DNA of 64,000 nucleotides from Chiloscyllium plagiosum (lineage: Eukaryota). The DNA lies in contig NC_057757.1 in NCBI RefSeq assembly GCF_004010195.1, forward strand, positions 2,396,276-2,460,275, written 5' to 3'. This document shows, piece by piece, positions 5,983 to 57,464 of this stretch (the stretch's first letter is position 1; every line of letters begins with the position of its first letter). The translations under genes and the position numbers were made by a program. A model generated the notes under the pieces. That model did no database searches and was not told the DNA's origin. It saw nothing but the letters and a program-made list of their open reading frames with translations.

Positions 5983-6650
5983 TCCCACTCCAGAGAGACC
6001 TGAGCACACGATGCTGCTACAAGGAAGCGTGGCACAGTTGGAGGTGCCACCTTTCGGGTGGGAGACTAAACCAAGCTCTGTAGGTCAATGTTAAAGATCC
6101 CACAGCCACTGTTGCAAAGAAGGAAGCAGCATCTGTGGAGAGAAAATGGTTAACGTTTTGATTGCAGTGTCGTCTTCACACCCTGTTATGAAGAAGGGTC
6201 CACCAAATCTTAAACATTAACTCTGCTTCCCCTCTCTCCACAGACGCTGCCAGACGTGCTGAGTTTTCCCAGCAATTTCTACCTTTTTTTCCCCAACAGT
6301 TCATTGGGTTTCTTTAATTGCAAAGAGGGGGAGGTTTCCCTGGCATCCTGGGCCAATACTTTGAGCAACATTAGTTTATTTCTTAAAAAAACCAGATTAA
6401 CTGGTCATTATCATGCTCCTGTTTGTTGGAATTTGCTGTGTATAGATTGGCTTTTTCAAAGATTCACCTCATGGATTGTGGGTGATGCTGGCTGGGCCAG
6501 CATTTATTGCCCATCCCTAGTAGCCCCAGAGAAGAAGGTGGTGACTCTAATGTTTTCTACATCAATTACAGTGAGACACTTCAGAAAGTACTGCATTGGA
6601 GTTCCGCATGCTGGGATGTTCTGTAGTTCTGAGACACGCGAACAGATTCA
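5983..6650 (+). mobile_element. Old DeuSINE-like (SacSINE1/AmnSINE1-type) element broken by later insertions; a similar copy lies on the minus strand at about 10545-10840
   Basis: GGAGGTGCCACCTTTCGG...TAAAGATCCCACAGCCACT...CTGGCCAATA...GTCATTATCA...TTTGCTGTG resembles the Deu-domain; recognised from memory only. Confidence 0.5.
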
Positions 6651-20897: not shown

Positions 20898-22423
20898 CTG
20901 GAAAGAAAACACATGTCTTGAGATTATCAAAGAGATACTAATCCGCGAGAAGGCAGAAACAGTGGCAGAAACTCTGGACTAGTAATCCAGAGATATACTG
21001 ACCATTAAACTATTACTAAATGCCATAAAAACCCAACTGCCTCGCTATTGACCTTTAAGGAAGGATATTCCCCCATTCTTACCTGGTCTGGCCTACATGT
21101 GACTCTAGAACCACAGCTGTAGTATGTGGTTGACTTTTAACTGTCCTCAGGGTAATTAGGGATGGACAATAAATGCTGTCAATGCCCATCCCCCATGACT
21201 GAATAAACAAACTAACCTCTGCATAAAATGCTGTGCACCTCAAAAATAAAACAAAGACATAATAAAGTGGCAATGAATGATGTTTTCTCTCCTCTGCGAC
21301 CTGGGATGTGAATCTAGCCCAAGATTTATAGCATAAAAGTCTCCTCCACTGCAAGCTGGAATGGGTTGGGGTCTCAAACTAATTTCTAGTGCAAGCAAGT
21401 CCACAATACTAAGCAATAAGATGCTTTTAAAACAGAGTGCTGGTATGTTACATCCTACCTACAGCAGTGTTGCTGAAGCTTTTCATGTTGCGCTCATTAG
21501 AATAAATGCAATCCAAACAATCAAAGTGTACAACAGGAGCAAAAGGTGCTGATTGATTGGCAAATTGACTCTGGTTGGCCAAGGTATTGCTATTGAATAT
21601 AGAAGCCTCTGGATAATTCATAAAAAGATGCAACTCTTAAATGTCGTCCTTTTGTTGCAGACAGCAGGATCCTTTACATGAATTATGCCTCTTCTAGCCA
21701 GTGCAAATGAATCAAGCTTGAGTGATTATCTTAGCGTGGTTGTTACTGGCACATTCAAGATTGTTCATCAAGAGACGCCCTAATGTGGAGTAGCATCTAA
21801 CAGTTGATGTTTCGTTTTTGATTTTGCAAGGGCAAGCTGGGTAGAATACGGTCTGTACTCTGCCTCCTCCAAACAACCAAGGAATATGCACTTTGATTAT
21901 TGGCCAGTCAGTGGGATGGTTCTGGACATTGCACTCACAATGAATTCCACACATGACAATACTCTGGATGGTAGGCAGAATGTCTTTTTGGAGTGGCATC
22001 CTGGGAATGGAAAATATTATGCCCATCATATTAGCATCATGACACAACTTGCTCAAAGTCTTGCTCAAATTTGGGAAATACTTTGCCACTCTTGGCTAAC
22101 CAGAGTTGGTGACTGAAGCAGATATCATGCAAGATGCAAGAATAGATGAAAAAGTTTCCAAACAGTTGAAGGATCAGTTGTTTATTTTAAATTTTTGATA
22201 GGCAAAGTCTTGTTATGCAAAGATATTGAGGAATTTGGGCCAAAGGCAAGGTATGTGGACTTAGGTCACAAGACAATCATGATCCCATTAAATGGGGGAA
22301 TAGACTCAACAGGCTGAATGGCCTACACGTCTCGATATTCCTGATTGATGGAGTGAAGGGATTTGGGAGCAGGAAGGGCACAGAGTTTACATTACAGCTC
22401 ATTTGGACTGCAGAATCAATGAT

Positions 22424-22638
22424 GAGAGTGCGGTGCTGGAAAAGCATAGCAGGTCAGGCAGCATCCAAGAAGCAGGAGAGTCTATGTTTTGGGCATAAGC
22501 CCTTCATTCATTCCTAATGAAGAGCTTATGCTCAAAACGTCAAATCTCCTGCTCCTCGGATGCTGCCTGATCTGCTGTGCTTTTCCAGCAACACACTCAC
22601 AACTCTGATCTCCAGCATCTGCAGTCCCCCCTTTCTCC
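22424..22638. mobile_element. Palindromic Penelope-derived insertion with decayed hammerhead cores
   Basis: Inverted arms around 22510; imperfect 16-bp TSD CTGCAGAA(T/C)C(A/G)ATGAT at 22408-22423 and 22639-22654. Confidence 0.7.
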
Positions 22639-27713: not shown

Positions 27714-29134
27714 CTACAGAAAGAACACAAAGACAGTAGAATGAAAGGCCTCCCATGCATTCCCAGCACAAATCCTTTGGGTGGTGCAGGCTTTTCCAAA
27801 AGGAGGAGGCCAGGAAGATAGTCTTCAAGCAGCCAACATCTTGTCCACATCTCCCCTTTCACTCTTGACAACAACCCAAAACTTTCTCCTTCGGAGTGTT
27901 AAAAGACTACATAGTGCTGGCAAAGAACAGCAGGGAGTTGTCCCAGTGACTGGATTAACACTCCTCCATTCAACAAATCATTGCATTGCTCCAGCTCAGG
28001 AGAAGGCCATTCGGCCCACCGTATCTGCACCAGATCTCTGCAAGAGCAATGCGCCTTGTGTCACACTCCTGGCTTTTCCCTGTAGCCAACACACATTTCC
28101 CTTTTCAGATAATGCCTTGACTGAACCTGCTTGCAATCTGTTCTCAGGCAATGCATTCCAGATCCTAACTACCTGCTGCATTAAAGCCACTTTTGCTCAC
28201 ACTGCTCCTGCTTCTTTTACCAATCATTTTAAATTCAAAGTCCTCTGGTTCTCAGTTCGAAAGAAAAACTGCACTTTGCAGTCAATGTAATTTGTGAAGC
28301 ACTACTCTAACATAAGAATTAAAATTAAAAAGCAAATTGAATGGTTTTTAACCTCCATTTTGGAGTAAGGAATGGTAGCAGCACAGATCTAGCAGCCACA
28401 TGATGCTGGTGTGACTGTCAGGCAGGCAAAAACACACCTGTATCTCTCTCCAGTCTTCCTCAGGCTAGGGTTGCTCTCAACCCTTTATAGTCAATTAATT
28501 ACTTTTTGAGGTGGAGTCACTGTTGCATTGTAGGTCACTGAGCAGTCAGCTTGCACAAGGAAGCTATCATAAACTGTAATGATGGTAATCAGTTCTAGTT
28601 ACAGGCAGCACCCACAAACGCAAACAGACTCCATTCCACACAAGTCGATTTGTATTTAACACACAGGACAATATAAAGCAGCTGTTTGTCAGCACAGGAA
28701 ATGGTCTTTAAAATTACAGCACTGTATGGGATAACTTTCAGAAGTAGGACATCAGTAAATCAGGGACCCCCTTCATATCGGTTGTGGAGTGAACATTAGT
28801 TCCTGGACATAGGAGAGAACTTCCCCGCCTCTTCCTTCATTGGACCCATCATTCATTCAATCTTTTAAATTAGAAGCCCAGGGCAAAACAGGTCTCGGTT
28901 TACCTCGTCATCTGAATGACTGAACATTTAACTCAATACCTGCTCACAGAATGTTGACGTAGACAACAGGGTCAGGTTCCGGAACTGGATTTGAATCCAT
29001 GATTTGGAGACTCTGAGGAGTGGAGGAGGATGTGAGAAGGGGCAGAGAAAGAGGGGAGCAGGGGGAGCAGCACAGGGTGGAAACGTAGAAAGGAGGAGAG
29101 AGAGAAGAAAGAAATGTGGAAGGGGGCACGGAGA

Positions 29135-30127
29135 NNNNNNNNNNNNNNNNNNNNNNNNNNNNNNNNNNNNNNNNNNNNNNNNNNNNNNNNNNNNNNNNNN
29201 NNNNNNNNNNNNNNNNNNNNNNNNNNNNNNNNNNNNNNNNNNNNNNNNNNNNNNNNNNNNNNNNNNNNNNNNNNNNNNNNNNNNNNNNNNNNNNNNNNNN
29301 NNNNNNNNNNNNNNNNNNNNNNNNNNNNNNNNNNNNNNNNNNNNNNNNNNNNNNNNNNNNNNNNNNNNNNNNNNNNNNNNNNNNNNNNNNNNNNNNNNNN
29401 NNNNNNNNNNNNNNNNNNNNNNNNNNNNNNNNNNNNNNNNNNNNNNNNNNNNNNNNNNNNNNNNNNNNNNNNNNNNNNNNNNNNNNNNNNNNNNNNNNNN
29501 NNNNNNNNNNNNNNNNNNNNNNNNNNNNNNNNNNNNNNNNNNNNNNNNNNNNNNNNNNNNNNNNNNNNNNNNNNNNNNNNNNNNNNNNNNNNNNNNNNNN
29601 NNNNNNNNNNNNNNNNNNNNNNNNNNNNNNNNNNNNNNNNNNNNNNNNNNNNNNNNNNNNNNNNNNNNNNNNNNNNNNNNNNNNNNNNNNNNNNNNNNNN
29701 NNNNNNNNNNNNNNNNNNNNNNNNNNNNNNNNNNNNNNNNNNNNNNNNNNNNNNNNNNNNNNNNNNNNNNNNNNNNNNNNNNNNNNNNNNNNNNNNNNNN
29801 NNNNNNNNNNNNNNNNNNNNNNNNNNNNNNNNNNNNNNNNNNNNNNNNNNNNNNNNNNNNNNNNNNNNNNNNNNNNNNNNNNNNNNNNNNNNNNNNNNNN
29901 NNNNNNNNNNNNNNNNNNNNNNNNNNNNNNNNNNNNNNNNNNNNNNNNNNNNNNNNNNNNNNNNNNNNNNNNNNNNNNNNNNNNNNNNNNNNNNNNNNNN
30001 NNNNNNNNNNNNNNNNNNNNNNNNNNNNNNNNNNNNNNNNNNNNNNNNNNNNNNNNNNNNNNNNNNNNNNNNNNNNNNNNNNNNNNNNNNNNNNNNNNNN
30101 NNNNNNNNNNNNNNNNNNNNNNNNNNN
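29135..30127. other. Assembly gap (run of N) in CNTROB intron 13
   Basis: Continuous N, flanked by purine-rich low-complexity sequence. Confidence 0.99.
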
Positions 30128-31608: not shown

Positions 31609-33030
31609 CTGGAGACATTAACACAGAGTTGTTAGAACTGTCACCTACCAAAGAATGACTTACAAATAAAAACACATTTGTATTACCTTAACGTAACGTG
31701 GGATAGAGGCATAGCAGAGCTGGAATGACTCCTCTGCACTCCAGTAATAGTGCTTCCGCAGCAAGGCATAGAATTACAATGACCCCAGGAGTTTGACTGT
31801 CAACCAGTGCAACCAAAGTAAGCACCCATTAATGTAACAAACACAGTACAATCCAGCAATGACATTTAACACGTTTAACATCAAACTGACAGTATTGAAA
31901 CAGGCCATTCAGACCATGCTGGTATTTATGCCCTCCTTTAATCCCTTCCCTTCAAAGTTCTTTCTCCCTCTTATTTATTCAACATCCCCTTAAAAGTACC
32001 CAAATGATTCACTGCAACCACTTCCAGTGGCAATGGGTACCCAGAGAACTGGAAAAGAGGTTCCTCCTGAGTTTGTTAACATCTTATTGATGGCCCTTAG
32101 GTCAGGTCGTCTCCACAACAGGAAACATCTTCTCAATGCCTCCTCCATCAAAGCTTTTCATCATTTTAAATTAAGCATCAGCATGAAGATTATGTTAAAT
32201 CTGTATAAAACACTGGTGCAGCCTTGGCTGGAGTAACTGTCTCCTTGTGGGCACGACAATTTAGAAAGGATTACACTTGAGGAATTCTTCCTTGTGGTTA
32301 CCTCTGACTTCCTAATCCAAATGAAGATGAAAGTCACTGATGATTAATATACTGCCTTTTTACAAGGCTTCATTATCTCCTGATTTATTCTCTGTCCTGC
32401 CAAGTACTACTACTTGGGGTCCTTTAACCTCGTCCTGACAGTGTGCTTTCGTCCCTTTGTTATTTCTGACCTCCATTAACATGGAATCTATAGTTTCTGG
32501 TCAAAGATGTTTTTTGCTGTTGCCTCCATACCTCCGAACCACCACCCTTTCCCTCCTGCCTGTGCTTTCAAAAAGTCACATACCTCTGAATATTTAGTTA
32601 CCAGCTTTGATCTCCTTGTAACCATGTCTCTGTAATGGCTATAAGGTCATATCCATTCACCTTCATTTGTAGCATCAATTCATTTATTTTATTCCAAGTC
32701 CAATGCAATGGAAAACATGCGGGTAGGACAAGCTGGAAGTCCCCACAACTCAAACATCCACACCCAAGTGGCCTGCAGCAAGTGATTAGGAAGGCAAATG
32801 GGAGGTTGGTATTTGCTGCAAGGGGAATCGAGTTAAAAAGTAGCAAAGTATTGCTGCAGCTCTACATGGAGCTAGTGCGACCACATCTGGGAGTACAGAG
32901 TTCTGGTCTCTTACTGAAGGAAAGATATAACTGCACGAGTAGCTGGTCAGAGAATGTTCACTTGACTGAGTCTGGAGATGAAGGGGTTTACTTTATGACA
33001 AAAGATCAAGCAGTTTGGATCTTTACTCAG

Positions 33031-33219
33031 GAGAAAGTGAGGACTGCAGATGCAGGAGATCAGAGTCAAGAGTGTGGTGCTGGAAAAGAACAGGTCAGGC
33101 AACATCCGAGGAGCAGGGCATTTGATGTTTCGGGCACAAGCCCTTTATCAATGGGATTCCTGATGAAGGGCTAATGCCCGAAATGTCGATTCTCCTGCTC
33201 CTAGGATACTGCCTGACCT
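33031..33219. mobile_element. Palindromic Penelope-derived insertion carrying a hammerhead motif; 14-bp TSD
   Basis: Inverted arms around about 33153; GGATCTTTA(C/T)TCAG at 33017-33030 and 33220-33233; interrupts a CR1. Confidence 0.75.
33153..33194 (+). ncRNA. Minimal type I hammerhead ribozyme motif; activity untested
   Basis: CUGAUGA (33160-66), A, GGGC-UAAU-GCCC stem II, GAAA (33180-83), UGUC; stem I GGGAUUC/GAUUCUC pairs at 6 of 7 positions. Confidence 0.6.
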
Positions 33220-33329
33220 GGATCTTTATTCAGTAGTGTTTAGAAGAATGGGAGGTGACCTTATTGAAATAGACAAGGTTCTGAGCAGGCTTGATAGGGA
33301 AAGCACTGAAAGGATAGCAGGGATGTTAA

Positions 33330-34252
33330 GGATGGCACAATAGCTCAGTAGTTAGCATTGCTGCCTCACAGCACCACGGACCAGTGTTCGATTCTAGCCT
33401 TGAATGACTGTCTATGTATAACTTGCATGTTCTCCTTACGTTAGTGTGCGTTTCTGTCGGATTCTTTGGTTTCGTCCCACAGTCCACAGATGTGCAGGTT
33501 AAGGTGGATTGGCCATGGGAAATTGTCCCATAGTGTCCAGGGATATGCAGGTTAGGCGAGTTAGCCATGGGAAATGCAGGGTTATGGGGATAGGATATCG
33601 GGGTGGGTCCTGGTGGGATACTCTTTGGAAGGTCAGTGTGGACTCAGGCCAAATGGCTTGCTTTCACACTGTAGGGATTCTATGATGTTTCTCCTTGTGG
33701 AAGATCATGTGGTCTCCCATATAAGATGAAAAGGAGAAGAAATATTTTCTCCGGTGGTCAGTTTTGTGAACAATGGAAGTGGGGCAATAATTATATTCAG
33801 GGCTGAGGTGGAAAGATCTCTGATCAACAAGGGAGTCAAGGGATATTTTCTTCTCAGGACTATTACCCTCTGGTGAGCTTCAGTTGGAAGAACATTTTTT
33901 TTCCCCCATCTGGGGACCCTATAGCCTCAATATTGTGATCCTTCATAGAATCAGATAATCCGTACAATGTGGAAGCAGGCCATTCAGCCCACTGAGTCCA
34001 CATTGACCCTCTGAAGAGCATCCCACCCAGATCCACCCCCTACCCGATCTCTGTAACCCTGCATTTCCCATGACCAATCCACCTAACCTGCACATCCTTG
34101 GACCGTGGGATGAAACTGGAGTGCCCAGAGGAAACCCACGCAAACACAGGGAGAATATGCAAACTCCACACAAATGGTGGTCTGAACTGGAATCGAACAT
34201 GGGTCCCTGGGGTCGTGAGGCAGCAGTGCTAAACACAGATACTGTGCCGCAC
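33330..34252. mobile_element. Two HE1-like SINEs in inverted, tail-to-tail orientation (33330-33685 plus; 33945-34252 minus)
   Basis: Head and tail motifs appear on opposite strands. Confidence 0.72.
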
Positions 34253-34580: not shown

Positions 34581-35004
34581 CTACAGCCCGTCATGCAAGA
34601 GAGGAAGACTTGCAATTAGACAGCACCCGTCAATGCGATGCCTCCCAAAGTAACTTACAGCCAATGGCGTACTTCATAAAAAGTGCAGTCACCATTATGA
34701 GGCAAAAAATGCAACAGATAAACTCTGTCGAGCAAGAACGGGATTGCGATCAAAATTTACTATTGACCATGATCAAGAGATAATCGTCAGCTGCAGGACG
34801 CTGGGGCAATCTTCACCGCTTTCTGTTGTAACAGTGGTCCTATGTCAAACTGAGAGGTCTCTGTCTATTGTCCCGTTTCAAAGGCAGCACCTCAAAGGGT
34901 GCAGCTCTCCTTGGTACTGCTCTGGGAAGCTTGGCCTGCTCGAGTATCTAGGTGGGGAGCTGTGTAGGCAAATAAAGTACAAACATAGGATTTCAGAGAG
35001 CTAA

Positions 35005-35191
35005 CACAGAAATTGCTGGAAAGGCTCAGCAGGTCTGGCAGCTTCTGTGGAAAGAAATCAGATTCAAGGTTTTGGACCAAAAACATTATCTCTGGTTTCT
35101 CTCCACAAATGCTGCCAGACATGCTGAGCTGTTCCAGCGATTTGTATTTTTGTTTCTGATTTACAGCATCCGCACTTCTTTTGGTTTTATA
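35005..35191. mobile_element. Palindromic Penelope-derived insertion, third family, centre deleted
   Basis: Inverted arms; TSD TCAGAGAGCTAA at 34993-35004 and 35192-35203. Confidence 0.7.
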
Positions 35192-36015: not shown

Positions 36016-36817
36016 ACAGAAACTCTGTCCTCGTCTACTGAGCCAAATGACTGTTGTTTGTAATATGGATGCCGGGATTGGGGGAAACAAGTGCAAGAAA
36101 CACCCAGCAGGTCAGACAGCATCCATGGAGAGAGAAACAGAGTTATTGTTTCAGAGTTGACCATCAGCTCTGAAAGGAAGACATGGAGCTGAAACACAAA
36201 CTTGTTTTCTCTCTGCCCAGATGCCACCTGACCCGGTGAGCATTTTGGAAACCTGGTCAGCATGGACAAGTTGGACCGAAGGGTCTGCTTCCACACTGAA
36301 CATCTCTATAACACTATGACTGAGATCCAGTGACCTCGGTAGACTACTTACTTTGATTAAACAGAGTCTCTGGATTTTAAGAGGCTTTGCATGATGCTCA
36401 TCATCATGAAATTGTTCACTCCTACTTTCTGTTGCTGTGCACTCGTACCAAACATTGTCTGTTCTACTGTGGGTAACCAATACTGGGAGCTTCAACAGAC
36501 TATTCCCAAAGTAATATTTGGACATGGGCGTCGTTGGCAAGGCCAGCACTTCTCATTCATCACTAATTGCCCTTGAACTGAGGGCCTTATTTGGTCATTT
36601 CAGAGTCAAATCACTTTGCTATAGATCTGGAGTCACACGTAGCCAGACCAAGCAAGGACAGAAGATTTCACATAATAAATCGCAAGCTACAGGACAGTTG
36701 GGAACATACCAGGCTGTGCAAAAAGGCCAAGCACCACAAAGGAGAATAGAAGGAGGGAGCTTCAGTGGCAATCAAAGCAAAATAGAAGTAATTTTGTTTT
36801 AAAAACAAACCCCCTAC

Positions 36818-42043: not shown

Positions 42044-43481
42044 CTATGGGGGAGGCAGTGGAGGAGGGGAAGGGGAAGAAACAAGGAGAAAAGGTCAGAG
42101 TGGGGCAGGGGCACCAAACGTCGGTGGGGAAGACCAGAAAAATCAAGTCATCGTTACATTTCTGTTCGTAGTGCATTGTAAATAAGTCATCGCCACTTCA
42201 CTGAAGACCAAATATACTGAAATGTGAAACAAAAATTCTTAGAGGGCTTTATTGCATGGATGTTGATCTGGTTGGAATTTGAAAGGGGAACTCAATCTTA
42301 GGATAAGGGGCCTCAGTCTTTTAGAACTATGATGAGGAGAAATTCTCTCAGAAGTTTATGATTCTTAGCAATTCTCTACCTCAAACAGCCATGGTTGATC
42401 AATCATTTGTTGAGAATATTCAAGATCCAGTTCAGTAGATTTCTATGTTCTAAGATGGTTAAGGAGTACAGGAATAGGAGAGGACTGTGGCACTGAGATG
42501 GAAGATCAGCTATGGCCTGGTTGAATGGGACTGTAAGTTTGAACAGCTGAAAGGTCCCCTCCTGCTCCTATGTTTTATCTTCCCTTATGTCCATTCTTAC
42601 TATCTCTCACCTCTTACCCTGCTCTTTTGTATTCACTTCTGAGTGAGAAGGTCACAAGCTTAAGACCATCTCCAGAAATGTGCACACATACTCCAGACAG
42701 ACATTCTCAGAGCAGACTAGACCTTGGTTTAATAGATCACCTGAGAGACGATACCTCTGGCAGCACAACACTCCCTCAGTATTGGAACAGACATGTTAGC
42801 CAACACTATTTTTTCATGTCTCTGGTGTGGGGCTCAAAAGAGAGGTGTTCATGGGGCTAAATTATAATTCAACGCTTTTACTTAAGACTGAAAGAACTGC
42901 AGATGCTGTGTAAAGCAGAAACAAATATAGAAATGCTGGAAAAGCTCAGCAGGTCTGGCAGCATCTATGTCAGACGTGCTGAACTTTTCCAGCAATTTCT
43001 ATATTTACTCAAGTAATATTTCATCTCCCATACAAGTTAACCCCTGACCTTGGACCCAAAAAGCCTTTATTGTGGGCGGCACGGTGGCACAGGGGTCGGT
43101 GTGGACTTGTTGGGCCGAAGGGCCTGTTTCCACACTGTAATCTAATCTAATCATATACCTTGTGCTAGTTTTGGAAGTAGGGATTCTAGTAACAGTCTTC
43201 TTCACAATTACTCCCATTTAAACGTTATAAAACCAAGGCAGCTGTTTCGTGAGTGTGTTCAGGACCATGGATAGCGACCAGCGCCAATCTCGTTTCCAGC
43301 ACTTCCAAAGACCCGGCATGGATTTCAGTCCCTCAACATTGTTACTCGTGTAAAAGCCAATTTCCTATTGTAAAAGGATTTGTTCTCAAACACCCAATTT
43401 TTAATTCAGTACATACAGTTCACAGTAATGGTATTACTCTCTAAAGTTGGTATCAAGCCGGGAATGTTTATTTTTCCTTAC

Positions 43482-47808: not shown

Positions 47809-50087
47809 CTGTAGTTGGACGAAGCAAGAAATTAGACGTCAATCACAGCTCCACAACTGAACAATTAATGCCTGTATAATTCTGAGTGTTAGAAGGGCAG
47901 AGTCGAAAGGATAGACTGAACCATAGACAGGCCCATAGAAACAGAGGCTTCAGAATAAGAATGTTATGGTTTTTTTTAAAGAAATCAGCATTCATAAAAC
48001 TAACATGAATTTCTTTCTGTCGCTTTTTTTTATAAACCTAGTGGAGGAATAAGCTTAGGGGAAAGTGAAGACTGCAGATGCTGGAGATTAGAGTTGAGTG
48101 CGTGGTGCTGGAAAAACACAGCAGATCAGGCAGCATCCGAGCTTAGGGGGTCTTGTGCCAGAGTAGGCAGCTTCCTTACCTCCGAGTTAGAAGCATCTGA
48201 TACAAGTCCAACCCAATGGCCTAAAGACTAAGGAAGGTGAGTTCAAAGTGCAGGCTTGATTATCAACTTGCAAATCCTTCCACCCATGAAAGGCGCAGAG
48301 AGCAGGACAGATTTCTCATCATCCATGCTTGATGTTGAGTGCCCCCTCCTCATGCTATAAGCTCTGAATTCAGGCTAGCAATATATTCCGGAACAAAATC
48401 AACTACAAAATGCAGACATAAGCATGCGCCTTGCCTGCCTCGTATGTCCCTAAATGCATGAATTTTTCAAGTCTAAAGAAGGATAAGGAAAAGGCACCAC
48501 ATTGGCCAGAATATCAAGGTGTTTTTCCTGTGGAGTCACATGGTCAAATTCACCCAGCTGATTCCTAGGAGGAAAGGGGTTTGTCTTGCAAGGCAAAGCT
48601 CAGCAGGTTATGCCGGTAACTCAACGGACTTTAAGATAATCAAAAGTGATCTTATTCAAGCAAATAGGTTTCTGAAGGGGCTTGTCATGATAATGAAAAG
48701 ATGATGTTTCTCCTCATCAACTTTGTCAAGAGTGAGGGGAGAGAGGCAGGAAAGTGAGTTTAAGGTCGCATCCAATCAGTCATTGAATGGCAGAGCAAGC
48801 ATGAGATGAATGGCCTCTTCCTGCTCCTATTTCTTAGAAAAGAATGTCAGCCTTCAAAAAGGAAACACAAAAGTTGTTAGAGACAAATGTATTAAGATGC
48901 CCAATTTGCCTTTTATCTTCACAAGGTGTTTAGATCCTTTCTAGAGATGTACATATTCAAAAAAAAAACCTGTCACTTCAGCAAGACTGGATGGAATTTA
49001 TTTACCTGAAAGCACTCTTGTCATAATCAACCTTCCAGAGATATCCCAGTGAGAAAGGAGGATTCTAGGAAGGGGACAAGCCAACTGTAATTAACCCGGC
49101 AGGTTAAGGATAGCATGAAATTGAAAGAAGAGAAACATACAATATGTCAATATTGTGGTAAGCCAGAGGACTGGGCAGGTTATAAAACCAACAAAAATGA
49201 CCCAGCCAATGATAAAGAGGGAGAAAATAAATTTTGAGGGTAAACTTGCAAGTAATATCAAGATGAACAGAAAAAAAAAGCTTCTTTAAATATATAAAAG
49301 AGGAAGGCCAAACCAAACATAGCCCCTTTAGAGAATGAGTCTGGGAAAGTAATAATGGGAAACCACGAAATGGCAGAGAACTTGAATAAATATTTTACAT
49401 TGGCCTTCATAGTAGAAGACACTAATAGTGTTCCAGAAATACTAAATAATAGAGGTAAAAAGGAGGGACAAAATAAATAGGTTAACCATCATTAGAAAAA
49501 AGTACAAGGGAAAGGGCTAAGACCAACAAGTCCGCTGGACCTGATGGAACGCGTACTAGGATCTCAAATGAAATTTAGAATTAGTTTTATTGTCACATGA
49601 ACTCACGAATACCAGTAAAAAGTTTACAACTCGCCACTTATAGCACCATCTTAGGGACAAAGGTATCTAGGTACACATTCTTCAGGAAAAAAAATTTAAA
49701 AATGAAAAATGAAGAAGTAGCTATAGAAATAGTAGTAATCTTCCAAGAATCCTTGAATTCTGGAAAAATGCAAGAGGAGTAGAAAACTACAAATGTAACA
49801 TATTTATTCTAAAAGGGATGGGGACAAAAAAGAAACAGGTAATTATTCATCAGTTAGTTTAACATCGGTTATTGAGAAAATGTTGCAAAAACCGAACTCC
49901 CATGCTTAGTGGGAATGCACAGGAATAAGTTTCTGTGAGACAGTTGGCAGGCAGTAATCGATGCAAGGAGTAAAAGATGAAGTGTTTTCAAGAACTTAAT
50001 GGATTGCTTCTTCTTAAACCTCCCGAAGTTAAGTCATGAATCCTCTTTAAGCATCGCGAGACAGCAAGAACATGTAACCCATCTGAA

Positions 50088-54387: not shown

Positions 54388-54614
54388 TGTTAAAAATTAC
54401 ACAACACCAGGTTATAGTCCAACAGACTTACTTGGAAGCACTAACTTTCAGAGTGCTGGTCCTTTATCAGGTGGTTGTGGAGTCCACAATCACCTGATGA
54501 AGGAGCAGCGTTCTGAAATCTAGTGCTTCCAAATAAACCTGTTGGACTATAACCTGGTGCTGTGTGATTTTTAAACTTTGTATACCCCAGTCCAACACTG
54601 GCGTCTCCAAATCA
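54388..54614. mobile_element. Palindromic Penelope-derived insertion, second family, carrying a hammerhead motif; 11-bp TSD
   Basis: Inverted arms of about 90 bp centred near 54481; TTAAAACACAA at 54377-54387 and 54615-54625. Confidence 0.78.
54488..54528 (+). ncRNA. Minimal type I hammerhead ribozyme motif; activity untested
   Basis: CAC, CUGAUGA (54494-500), A, GGAGC-AGC-GUUCU, GAAA (54515-18), UC, UA, GUG. Confidence 0.55.
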
Positions 54615-57464
54615 TTAAAACACAACATCAGTCAAAAGTTTGGAATTTTTAAAAAGCCTTTTTTTTTTATATAAAAGATATCCAGGATTTCATATTGAAT
54701 GAATAAATCTCTAAAAAGCAGCAAAGGAATTAGCCTCCAGAAGGTGCTGGGAAGCAGCAATCTATCGGAATCACTGCTTCCCACGTGGCATTGGTAAGTC
54801 CATTGTCAAGTGTTTTTTTTACTCATGGTTTGACATACTGACCATCTTGTTGGGTCATTTCAGAGGGCAGTTAAGAGTCAACCTCAGAGCTATGGTTCTG
54901 GAGTCACGAGAAGGCCTGACGCAGTTACAGCAAATTACCAGCACCCAACGAACAGTAGTGAACTGAACACTTTGTTTTAAATGATCAATGATAGCTTCAT
55001 GGTCACGATTATTGAAACAAGTATTTCCATTCCAGGCGTATTTAATGAGCTGAATTTAAATTCACAAGATATGCTAATGTATTGGGATTATTAAGCCAGG
55101 CCTCCACATTGCTTGTCTGGTAGTGTAACCAGTCTGTAGCATATCCACGGCAGCAATGAGCATACAACACGGGCAGTTGCTCAACTTGGTCTGGTCCTTT
55201 AAAGTCACTGTATAGTAAACAGTCTCAGGAGGTGCCCAGATCAGTGAGGGCTATTTTAGCCAGACAATTACATTGATTGTCAGCTCCTGATAGCCACCAC
55301 GCCCACCCTGGCTCACAGGGAATAAACCACTTCCCCCAGACATCTGCCCAGTGGTGACCCTATTCTAACATTTTTAACTTCACATGAACCCAGAGCGTAA
55401 GGCGGGGAAGGGATGAGAGCTGAACTCGGGGATGGGTTGGCTTCAGTTGCTGAGGAGGCTAGGAAGTTGGGACTTTAGCCCGTGAACTGGTTTTTGGAAG
55501 GTTTGGGGGCGATGGGGGGAATGGGGGGTTGTTGAGTGGAAAGGGAGAGTTGAACATTGGGTGACAAGAGCAAACTTCCAACAAAATGAAGCAAATGCCT
55601 GACCTTACACAGCCTGCAGAAACAACTGAACTCAAAGAGCAGTCCATTAGGTCATACCCACCAACAAATCAAAGGTAAGTATTTCAAAAGTGGTCTTGCA
55701 GGTGTTAGCACTCAGTCCAAGCTCCATCACAGCTACTGCGGTTTCAGAACGAGCCACCTCAAATTTCTGTTGTGCAACTCTCACCGAGGGTCATGCTGCT
55801 CAGTATATGAAGTCCTGAATTAAACCCAGACAATCCAATTTCATTCATGCTTAGCTCAATGCTGCCACAGCGCACTCAGTGATAGCATTCCACCGTGATG
55901 AAGCTGTATAAGACTTTGTAACGGCCATAGCAGAAGTACTGTGTGCAGTTCCAGTCACTGCACTATGTGATTGCACTGGATGGGGTGCAGAGGAGGCTTA
56001 CTCGGACGTTGCCCTGGGATGGAGCGTTTCAGTGATGAAGAGAGGCTGGATAAGTTTGCTTTGGAGCAGAGAAGGTTGTCGGGGGGGGGGGGAACACGTC
56101 ATAAAATTCCTATAGTGTGATAGCAAGTCAGTCCCACCCCCACCACACCCCATCCCATCCCATCCCACCCCCGAAGAGCAGCCCTTCCAGACCTAACGCC
56201 CTACCCTATTCCTATAACCCTGCATCCTCCATGGCTAACCCACCTACACATCCCTGGATACTAATGGGGTAACTTACTATGGCCAATCCACCCTAATCTA
56301 CACATTTTTGGATCGCGGGAGGAAACATGAGCACCCAGACGAAACTCATGCAGACACGAGGAGAATATGCAGACTCTACACAGGCAGTCACCCAATGATG
56401 GAATCAAACCCTGGTCCCTGTGCTAACCACTGAGTCATCATGCCGCCCTAATAGAGGTTTGTAAAATTTTGAGGGGCATGGACAGTGTGGAAATAAAGTT
56501 GCTACTCCCCTGAACTGAAGAGTCAATAACAAGGGCAGGCATAATCTTAAAGTGAAAGGTGGGAGGGTTAAAGGGGATCTGAGGAAAAGCTTTTTTACCC
56601 AGAGGGTGTTGAGTGTCTGGAATGCGCCTCCAGGGGACAAGATGAGATGGGAAACCTCAATCTTTAAAAAGCAGTTAGATGAGCACTTGGTGCGTCATAA
56701 CATTCAAGGCTGTGGGCCTATTGGGGAAAAGTGGGACTAGTGAAGTTGGTTGTGTATTTTTGGCAGTAGACTTGACTGGTTGAAGGGCCTCTTCCACAAT
56801 GTATATTTCCCTCGATTGATTCGATAGATCATGGGAGTCAACATCCCAGGTCAGAGTACCTCATCCAGGCGGATAATCCCCATTTCAGTCCTGAAGGGGG
56901 CTGGATAGGGATGGGTGGGTTCAACACTGTCTTGCATTCAGACGTCAAACCAACCAAAGTGCCTTCCTCTGCTGTTCTGGGCAAACGTGAAGAATTCCAG
57001 TGCTCTTTGGAGCATCCCACCTCGACATTCTGGTCAATTGCCATCCCACAACCTGTGACAACTGTGTGCTGCCGCTCGTGGAATCTTGCTCTGCACAAAT
57101 CGATGACAGCAGCGACAGCTCTTTGTAAAGTACAATGTCAGCTGGCAATCTCTTTGCAACATCCTGAGGTTTCAAAAGACCCTTGAGAAAAGCAAATGCT
57201 CCTTGTCTGCAGCATCCAGTGCCCCTGGCTACTATCTTCGTTCCCTTGTCATTCAGTTCAGCTTCTCTTCTCAAAGACCCACCAAGAGGGAATGTGCAAT
57301 CATGGGCATAAACATTCACTAGCCAAAGAGTCTTGGAGAGTAAATTGCATCATTATCCACTCATAATTTGCCCCTCTCCTGGTGTTGAAAAGAATTTATT
57401 CACAAAGCAAACCCTCCAAGTCTAACTGACTGAACCATTTGCTGATTCAAGTCTGCCCACTCAC

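What the first reader, a model, noticed from the sequence alone, without database searches (positions are those of the whole stretch)
33017..33233. Near-intact minimal hammerhead ribozyme inside a palindromic, TSD-flanked retro-insertion
Seen: GGGATTC-CTGATGA-A-GGGC TAAT GCCC-GAAA-TGTC-GATTCTC. This has both catalytic boxes, a perfect 4-bp stem II, a GUC triplet (predicted cut after C33187) and a 6/7-bp stem I, but almost no stem III. An antisense copy sits in the other arm, and a 14-bp TSD flanks the insert. Established: Penelope-like retroelements carry minimal type I hammerheads with a tiny palindromic stem III and cleave best as dimers. Inference: this is a short non-coding Penelope-mobilised element (retrozyme-like). 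The expected ACGU stem III palindrome reads AUGU here, consistent with CpG decay.
Basis: partly seen in the sequence, partly recalled or inferred. Interest (0 to 1): 0.75.

Follow-up and report, generated by a model that had tools for sequence, protein, structure and literature searches.

The report
Mirrored Penelope-element ends with hammerhead motif
This 200-base mirror-image insert is two back-to-back ends of a very common jumping gene of a known kind (Penelope-like); the ribozyme motif it carries is real but predicted to be inactive at this spot, so it is an ordinary footprint, useful mainly because such footprints hint at how these elements likely copy themselves onto both strands of a cut.

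Summary
In detail: hammerhead core at 33160-33187, two inverted arms, and a 14-15 bp target-site duplication (TSD) confirmed against empty LINE sites. The element is not a separate retrozyme. It is the hammerhead-bearing end (pLTR) of an abundant endonuclease-bearing Penelope-like element: longer copies run on into a GIY-YIG/RT ORF with the Neptune-type linker. Head-to-head pairs are common (61 in 1.61 Mb, none tail-to-tail; roughly 130,000 genome-wide by extrapolation) and their centres differ from copy to copy. The CpG-decay reading (ACGU to AUGU) is right. The 6/7-bp stem I is a junction accident: the family has 2 bp + U.U + 1 bp. The second hammerhead is on the other strand and damaged, and the long hairpin is favoured by 26 kcal/mol, so this copy is unlikely to cleave. 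The layout and the minimal hammerhead are published. The family-level additions: 48 of 53 classifiable pairs join one long and one short end, and arms stop 0-10 nt before the core, not at the cut site. This fits twin priming on uncleaved RNA, running off at a promoter-defined 5' end (inferred). This scan has reported the same thing many times on other DNA.

The parts
33016..33030 (+). Left copy of the target-site duplication (14-15 bp; last G shared with the element end)
   Evidence: empty-site alignment
33030..33151 (-). Long arm: pLTR read on the minus strand from about the core (+0/+1) to the fixed long end (+125), including the tail
   Evidence: profile hit +1..+125; 13 differences in 121 positions from the arm majority
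33030..33065 (-). Approximate 'tail' (about +90 to +125), present on this arm only
   Evidence: end classes; tail described in PMC8557442, PMC3846280
33120..33151 (-). Damaged hammerhead copy (U for C3, A for G8, ACAU for ACGU, stem I broken)
   Evidence: sequence; differences
33152..33155 (.).
33156..33220 (+). Short arm: pLTR from -4 to +60, ending 25-35 nt earlier than most short ends
   Evidence: profile hit -4..+60; 4 differences in 65 positions
33156..33191 (+). Minimal type I hammerhead motif; predicted cut after 33187; family stem I is C-G, U-A, U.U, A-U
33219..33233 (+). Right copy of the target-site duplication
32782..33320 (+). Host repeat: decayed LINE ORF end split by the insertion (CR1-like by recall, not tested)
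   Evidence: one reading frame continues on both sides; other copies align across the empty site

Best explanation
The insert is a head-to-head pair of pLTR ends of an abundant endonuclease-bearing, likely Neptune-clade Penelope-like retroelement, likely made in one insertion event in which both strands of a 14-15 nt staggered cut primed reverse transcription on the same uncleaved RNA, and its hammerhead is predicted not to cleave at this locus. Shown: the arms are the element's pLTR, longer copies carry GIY-YIG and RT, the TSD is real, and the layout recurs with varying centres. Inferred: the protein (a predicted dimer) nicks both strands; one 3' end primes at the long site (+125), the other at the short site (about +85 to +99); both copies run through the hammerhead to an RNA 5' end just before it (about -10 to -1, likely a transcription start near the A at -4); host repair joins the two cDNA ends, with small overlaps or fillers. 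Arms that reach hundreds of bases upstream would come from the RNA's downstream pLTR. The ribozyme is cargo: cleavage is not needed to make these inserts.
For: Identity: longer copies continue into a C-rich UTR and a GIY-YIG ORF end. L132 holds an RT piece, the CX4CxxC linker, the GIY-YIG core and a pLTR 84% identical to the window arm, in the same inverted layout at 5.4 kb. Pfam GIY-YIG E 5.5e-4, below its cut-off; 24 RT relatives, best E 2e-67. The tail runs on into the ORF start (32% to P0001, E 1e-16). Layout in 1.61 Mb: 61 head-to-head, 0 tail-to-tail, of 189 clusters; TSD in 38 of 61 against 0 of 150 shuffled pairs, 11-18 bp, mode 14. Ends: 48 long+short, 4 long+long, 1 short+short (26.4 mixed expected if independent, p 3e-10). 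Arms share subfamily alleles (48 of 54 pairs at +77, 24.6 expected). Starts: 68 of 122 arms at -10..+4, 4 of 122 at +25..+31 (cut site +28). TTTAT is 91-96% conserved 33-29 nt before A-4. G before ATTCC: 1450 against A 522, control position 181 against 135, background ratio 1.14. In vitro, a PLE protein extends both strands from two internal sites, and hammerhead mutants still insert (PMC11167929).
Against: No RNA 5' end was seen: 2408 RNA reads laid from one run show no pile-up of starts or ends, and 94% run on into other sequence (the run may be of another species and the library type is ill suited). In the random blocks the G excess is not visible (8 G, 6 A), and a minor subfamily with a templated G is not excluded. 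PMC11167929 saw no difference in start site between strands, so the long+short pairing is not explained by it. Later deletions at palindrome centres could blur junction positions. Profile-based ends are good to a few bases only. This copy's short arm ends at +60, outside the usual range. No intact full-length copy was recovered and no RT tree was built.
Confidence: 0.62

Rival explanations
1. Same element, but the second arm is made by fold-back: one strand (cDNA, or an antisense RNA as proposed in PMC3846280) self-primes and is copied back, and the endonuclease trims the copy about 35 nt short.
For: It gives arms with the same alleles and a tail on one side at no extra cost. Some junctions are clean short palindromes. 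Self-priming is the published proposal for head-to-head pLTRs (PMC3846280, passages).
Against: The template arm must be the long one and must reach at least as far 5' as its copy, yet the short arm reaches further in 25 of 48 pairs, by 10 nt or more in 18. Solo inserts with a TSD start in the same window (13 of 15 at -7..+7), which needs no hairpin. Later centre deletion could rescue this model.
Confidence: 0.22
2. One reading: a discrete non-autonomous, retrozyme-like mini-element that is transcribed, self-cleaves and is mobilised as a unit by a Penelope protein.
For: Most inserts are short and non-coding. A young sister subfamily forms 205-224 bp head-to-tail arrays with a hammerhead in each unit and one junction shared by four loci. 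Retrozymes are described as pLTR derivatives (bioRxiv 10.64898/2026.07.22.740005).
Against: This copy is not tandem. Junctions vary and arm lengths form a continuum up to RT-bearing copies. Exact head-to-head junctions outnumber head-to-tail ones 2825 to 75 (patterns not identical). Arms do not start at the cut site. The two motifs are on opposite strands.
Confidence: 0.07
3. Twin priming, but arms stop before the core for a reason other than a transcription start: a splice acceptor, an RT block at the C-rich tract, or a bound protein.
For: The upstream region is a polypyrimidine tract and TTTAT also fits a branch-point motif (recalled consensus). In D. virilis Penelope the intron end maps to the 5' end of helix I (PMC4209133).
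Against: No AG is conserved at a fixed place among subfamilies, no recurring upstream exon is evident by eye in the 50 listed junctions, and the G excess at -5 fits a cap.
Confidence: 0.09

Closest known systems
EN+ Penelope-like element insertions with inverted pLTR, one-sided tail and TSD (Pen2a_Av, PMC3846280; general scheme PMC8557442 Fig. 2)
   Same: Head-to-head pLTRs, palindromic junction, 30-40 bp tail on one end, TSD, shorter inverted arm.
   Different: Here reduced to the two pLTR ends with no ORF between; TSD 11-18 bp against 8-10 bp in A. vaga; the tail lies before the ORF start (about +163) rather than in its first codons; very high copy number.
Minimal type I hammerheads of metazoan PLEs (Cervera and de la Pena 2014, PMC4209133)
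   Same: Both catalytic boxes, extra base between 9 and 10.1, G10.1-C11.1, palindromic 15.2-16.2, short helix I; the paper also notes dual motifs on opposite strands 100-700 bp apart.
   Different: Stem II is 4 bp (7-8 in Schistosoma); family stem I has a U.U mismatch; the two motifs here are about 10 nt apart.
Poseidon element of Anolis (PAc, PMC11167929)
   Same: Two preferred 3' ends that define a tail; uncleaved RNA as template.
   Different: Other clade; its ORF starts inside the hammerhead; no strand-specific start sites reported.
Non-LTR retrozymes (PMC7229834; bioRxiv 10.64898/2026.07.22.740005)
   Same: Short, non-coding, type I hammerhead, pLTR-related, TSD longer than 4 bp.
   Different: Retrozymes are head-to-tail repeats with a hammerhead per unit; this insert is head-to-head with a minimal motif and no tandem unit.

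Membership tests
EN+ Penelope-like element (pLTR fragment) | Unit continuous with an ORF of RT plus C-terminal GIY-YIG | tested here: met
   Met for the family, not in this copy: L132, L047 and others; all copies seen are broken or gapped
EN+ Penelope-like element (pLTR fragment) | pLTR lies at both the 3' end and before the ORF start | tested here: met
   After EN in 20 long copies; before the ORF start by overlap of L246-L257 with L252, young subfamily only
EN+ Penelope-like element (pLTR fragment) | Inverted 5'-truncated copy, 30-40 bp tail on one end, TSD | tested here: met
Neptune clade | CX2-5CxxC linker before GIY-YIG, cysteine pair inside the GIY-YIG core, C-terminal EN | tested here: met
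   CX4CxxC and the inner cysteine pair in L132; criteria from PMC8557442; the linker is shared with Nematis
Neptune clade | RT groups with Neptune references in a tree | not tested
   No named reference proteins were at hand (one name among 24 hits, uninformative)
Minimal type I hammerhead of PLEs | CUGANGA and GAAA boxes, extra base after A9, stem II closed by G-C, NUH triplet | tested here: met
   Window copy and family majority; three families with different stem II sequences (pairing is required by the descriptor)
Minimal type I hammerhead of PLEs | Palindromic stem III for dimer pairing | tested here: inconclusive
   Met in the family (48 of 76 hits ACGT or AGCT, 18 CpG-decayed); not met in this copy (AUGU, ACAU)
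Minimal type I hammerhead of PLEs | Self-cleavage as dimer or with protein help | not testable with these tools
   Needs an assay; folding predicts sequestration in a read-through transcript
Non-LTR retrozyme | Head-to-tail repeats with a hammerhead in at least two consecutive units | tested here: not met
   This locus is a head-to-head pair; met by L246-L250 of a sister subfamily
Non-LTR retrozyme | Discrete unit that spreads as such (shared ends and junction) | tested here: not met
   Varying junctions and a continuous size series
Non-LTR retrozyme | Expressed as unit-length linear and circular RNA | tested here: inconclusive
   Reads are mostly embedded in other transcripts, with no end pile-up; library not suited

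The most novel reading that the evidence does not exclude
These palindromes record asymmetric twin priming: one RNA is copied twice, always once from the long and once from the short start site, through an uncleaved hammerhead to a capped 5' end only 4 nt before the core. The transcription start itself would then limit stem I to 4 bp, and the inverted pLTR and one-sided tail of Penelope-like elements would come from a single step. Some 100,000 genomic copies would make this directly testable.
Probability: 0.45. Interest if true: 0.5.

Novelty: new member of a known kind. Interest (0 to 1): 0.25.

Why it matters
The locus itself is one decayed copy among very many and probably does nothing. As a class, the copies give numbers on an open point, how Penelope-like elements form inverted ends and a tail on one side: long and short ends are coupled, both arms share one template, and the template is uncleaved. 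That argues against ribozyme cleavage defining the copied RNA end and gives a clear prediction for the existing in vitro system.

Tried and rejected
Rfam scan of the window: no match. Loose core pattern: not above chance. Pfam on the 91-aa EN piece and on the RT piece: no family; homologue search with the EN piece: none of 33 candidates scored. Search for an intact ORF: the long open frames were runs of N or simple repeats. Sequencing-run search: no RNA holder listed; of 4 runs laid, one gave no reads and none showed start or end pile-ups. ARAGORN: no tRNA gene. Look-up of earlier findings by sequence: nothing. Rejected: cut-site-defined 5' ends (4 of 122 arms near +28); a 6/7-bp family stem I; a cis dimer between the two arms; a functional U3-A8 variant in the left arm (U3-A8 is reported in PMC4209133, but here the rest of the motif is damaged and the U lies at the junction). 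Literature searches for shark-specific or twin-priming descriptions listed none; 'twin priming' occurred 0 times in the 15 of 32 papers listed. The library lacks most subscription papers, and Repbase/Dfam were not available, so the family may already be named there. Only 12 of 593 tail-to-ORF sites could be read.

Full report
Observation. Numbering below is relative to C3 of the core (33160 = 0; predicted cut between +27 and +28). The arms fold as one long hairpin (z -14.3). Removing the insert and one TSD copy restores a LINE: 4 of 7 hits to other copies span the site. The core pattern alone is at chance level in the window and Rfam is silent, but a structured descriptor gives 76 hits in 1.61 Mb against 0 in a shuffle.

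Family. The genome is 3.56 Gb; I take it for a shark from recalled repeats and from earlier notes of this scan, not from a call. The insert found 4802 candidates, 40 scored. I sampled 16 blocks of 100 kb at arbitrary places plus the window (1,613,515 non-N bases). After dropping clusters that scored under 45 bits or under 0.45 bits per position (sister families), 189 remained: 61 head-to-head, 108 single, 0 tail-to-tail, 20 complex or lacking the end. That extrapolates to roughly 130,000 pairs and 400,000 inserts, a rough figure; some singles may be halves of larger inverted copies. Exact patterns give 2825 head-to-head and 75 head-to-tail junctions, reversed-pattern controls 0.

Identity. Upstream of the hammerhead, longer copies continue into a C-rich UTR and a GIY-YIG ORF end; that end has 94,302 candidates. 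L132 carries an RT piece, a CX4CxxC linker, the GIY-YIG core and a pLTR 84% identical to the window arm, arranged as a large inverted pair. Its RT has 24 relatives of 705-958 aa; Pfam GIY-YIG is hit weakly. The linker marks Neptune or Nematis (PMC8557442), and only Neptune and Poseidon were found in vertebrates (bioRxiv 10.64898/2026.07.22.740005), hence likely Neptune; no tree was built. Past the long end, a recurring continuation (593 sites) leads to an ORF start near +163 that matches the N-terminus of a full-length relative. So the unit is the pLTR and, in a tandem, the 5' leader of the RNA.

The ribozyme. The majority over 230 arms keeps both boxes, an extra A, a 4-bp stem II with a variable loop, and ACGU with CpG decay. 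Within the family I saw no compensatory change in stem II (by eye); across three families stem II differs in sequence and stem III is ACGT or AGCT. Stem I is C-G, U-A, U.U, A-U and then fails; +30 is A, giving 4 bp, in only 8% of arms. The sense motif here differs from the majority at 4 of 65 positions, one of them the CpG that breaks the palindrome; the antisense motif has lost C3 and G8. The short arm alone can form stems I and II, but in a transcript of the whole insert that fold costs 26 kcal/mol (-81.7 against -107.9). Published minimal motifs show no monomer cleavage and low dimer cleavage (PMC4209133); the Anolis one needs protein and is dispensable for insertion in vitro (PMC11167929); 1 of 9 Xenopus dimers cleaved (bioRxiv above). 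Cleavage at this locus is therefore unlikely (inference).

How the pairs form. TSDs are 11-18 bp, mode 14, in 38 of 61 pairs against 0 of 150 controls. Of 61 pairs, 48 join a long end (+112 or more) to a short end (+78 to +104), 4 are long+long, 1 short+short, and 8, including this one, have one atypical end; among the 53 classifiable pairs independence predicts 26.4 mixed (p 3e-10). Arms of a pair are 87.6% alike against 81.6% between pairs and share subfamily alleles, so they come from one template or one master; later conversion is not excluded. 68 of 122 arms start at -10..+4 and 4 at +25..+31; the chance of stopping is 0.04 in the 10 nt around the cut site and 0.53-0.65 at -15..+4. Templates were thus uncleaved. 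A conserved TTTAT lies 33-29 nt before the A at -4, in an otherwise variable stretch, the spacing of a TATA box and initiator (recalled). G precedes ATTCC 2.8 times as often as A genome-wide, against 1.3 at a control position and 1.14 in background: suggestive of a copied cap, but not seen in the small random sample (8 to 6) and open to a subfamily effect. The short arm reaches further 5' in 25 of 48 pairs and the long arm in 20, which simple fold-back forbids unless centres were deleted later. Twin priming at two fixed sites with run-off to the RNA 5' end fits all of these; it is inferred, and RNA reads gave no test.

Retrozyme question. This locus fails the tandem criterion. A young sister subfamily with the 4-bp stem I does form 205-224 bp head-to-tail arrays, with one junction shared by L246-L249; these five loci were picked for their spacing.

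Papers seen. PMC4209133: parts 1-2 of 4 (results, discussion). PMC11167929: parts 1-2 of 4 (main text). bioRxiv 10.64898/2026.07.22.740005: parts 1-3 of 5; supplements closed, and its one chondrichthyan genome may include this family. PMC8557442, PMC3846280, PMC2377424, PMC7229834, PMC6155905, PMC12602865: passages only. Others: search listings.

Verdict. A real but ordinary copy of a known layout and a known ribozyme type. My twin-priming and start-site reading was noted before I read earlier findings; 158 of them hold the same words, 8 were shown, and they agree, which is not independent support. One of them prompted the cap test. Identity about 0.95, inactivity at this locus about 0.85, full mechanism about 0.6. 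Interest 0.25.

Noticed in passing
L246-L250 (G000 C1:16162700-16163800, C1:26521600-26522700, C2:128769700-128770800, C3:80905000-80906100, C2:96928900-96930200): Young sister subfamily (97-100% alike) with a full 4-bp stem I forms head-to-tail arrays of 205-224 bp units (hammerhead, tail, ORF start), each with an intact ACGU motif; one junction is shared by four loci and L248/L249 are identical over 515 nt. Best retrozyme candidates and best cleavage-assay substrates. The double-hammerhead fold is 7.5 kcal/mol above the MFE.
   Followed up: partly
window 22405-22638: Second head-to-head pair of the same family, both cores damaged, no TSD found by the script.
   Followed up: partly
window 48059-48141: Single arm (+41..+124, no core) with a 10-bp TSD.
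   Followed up: partly
window 34989-35179, 6187-6275, 36091-36170, 42889-42993: Weak hits to a more distant pLTR family; 34989-35179 is again a head-to-head pair with a truncated centre.
   Followed up: no
window 54440-54620: Third hammerhead-bearing family (longer stem II; AGCT palindrome in its relatives), with an inverted partial copy just upstream.
   Followed up: partly
window 33325-33690: tRNA-like SINE head and an internal 52-53 bp duplication right of the insert (SINE identity recalled; ARAGORN finds no tRNA).
   Followed up: no
L236-L245: Clusters of 3-6 pLTR arms in mixed orientation within 300-600 bp, as if new arms land at or extend earlier ones.
   Followed up: no
L131-L135: Long inverted copies have runs of N between or within their arms, so full-length elements are probably under-represented in what could be read.
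   Followed up: no
window 28001-30000: GC falls to 25% against about 45% elsewhere.
   Followed up: no
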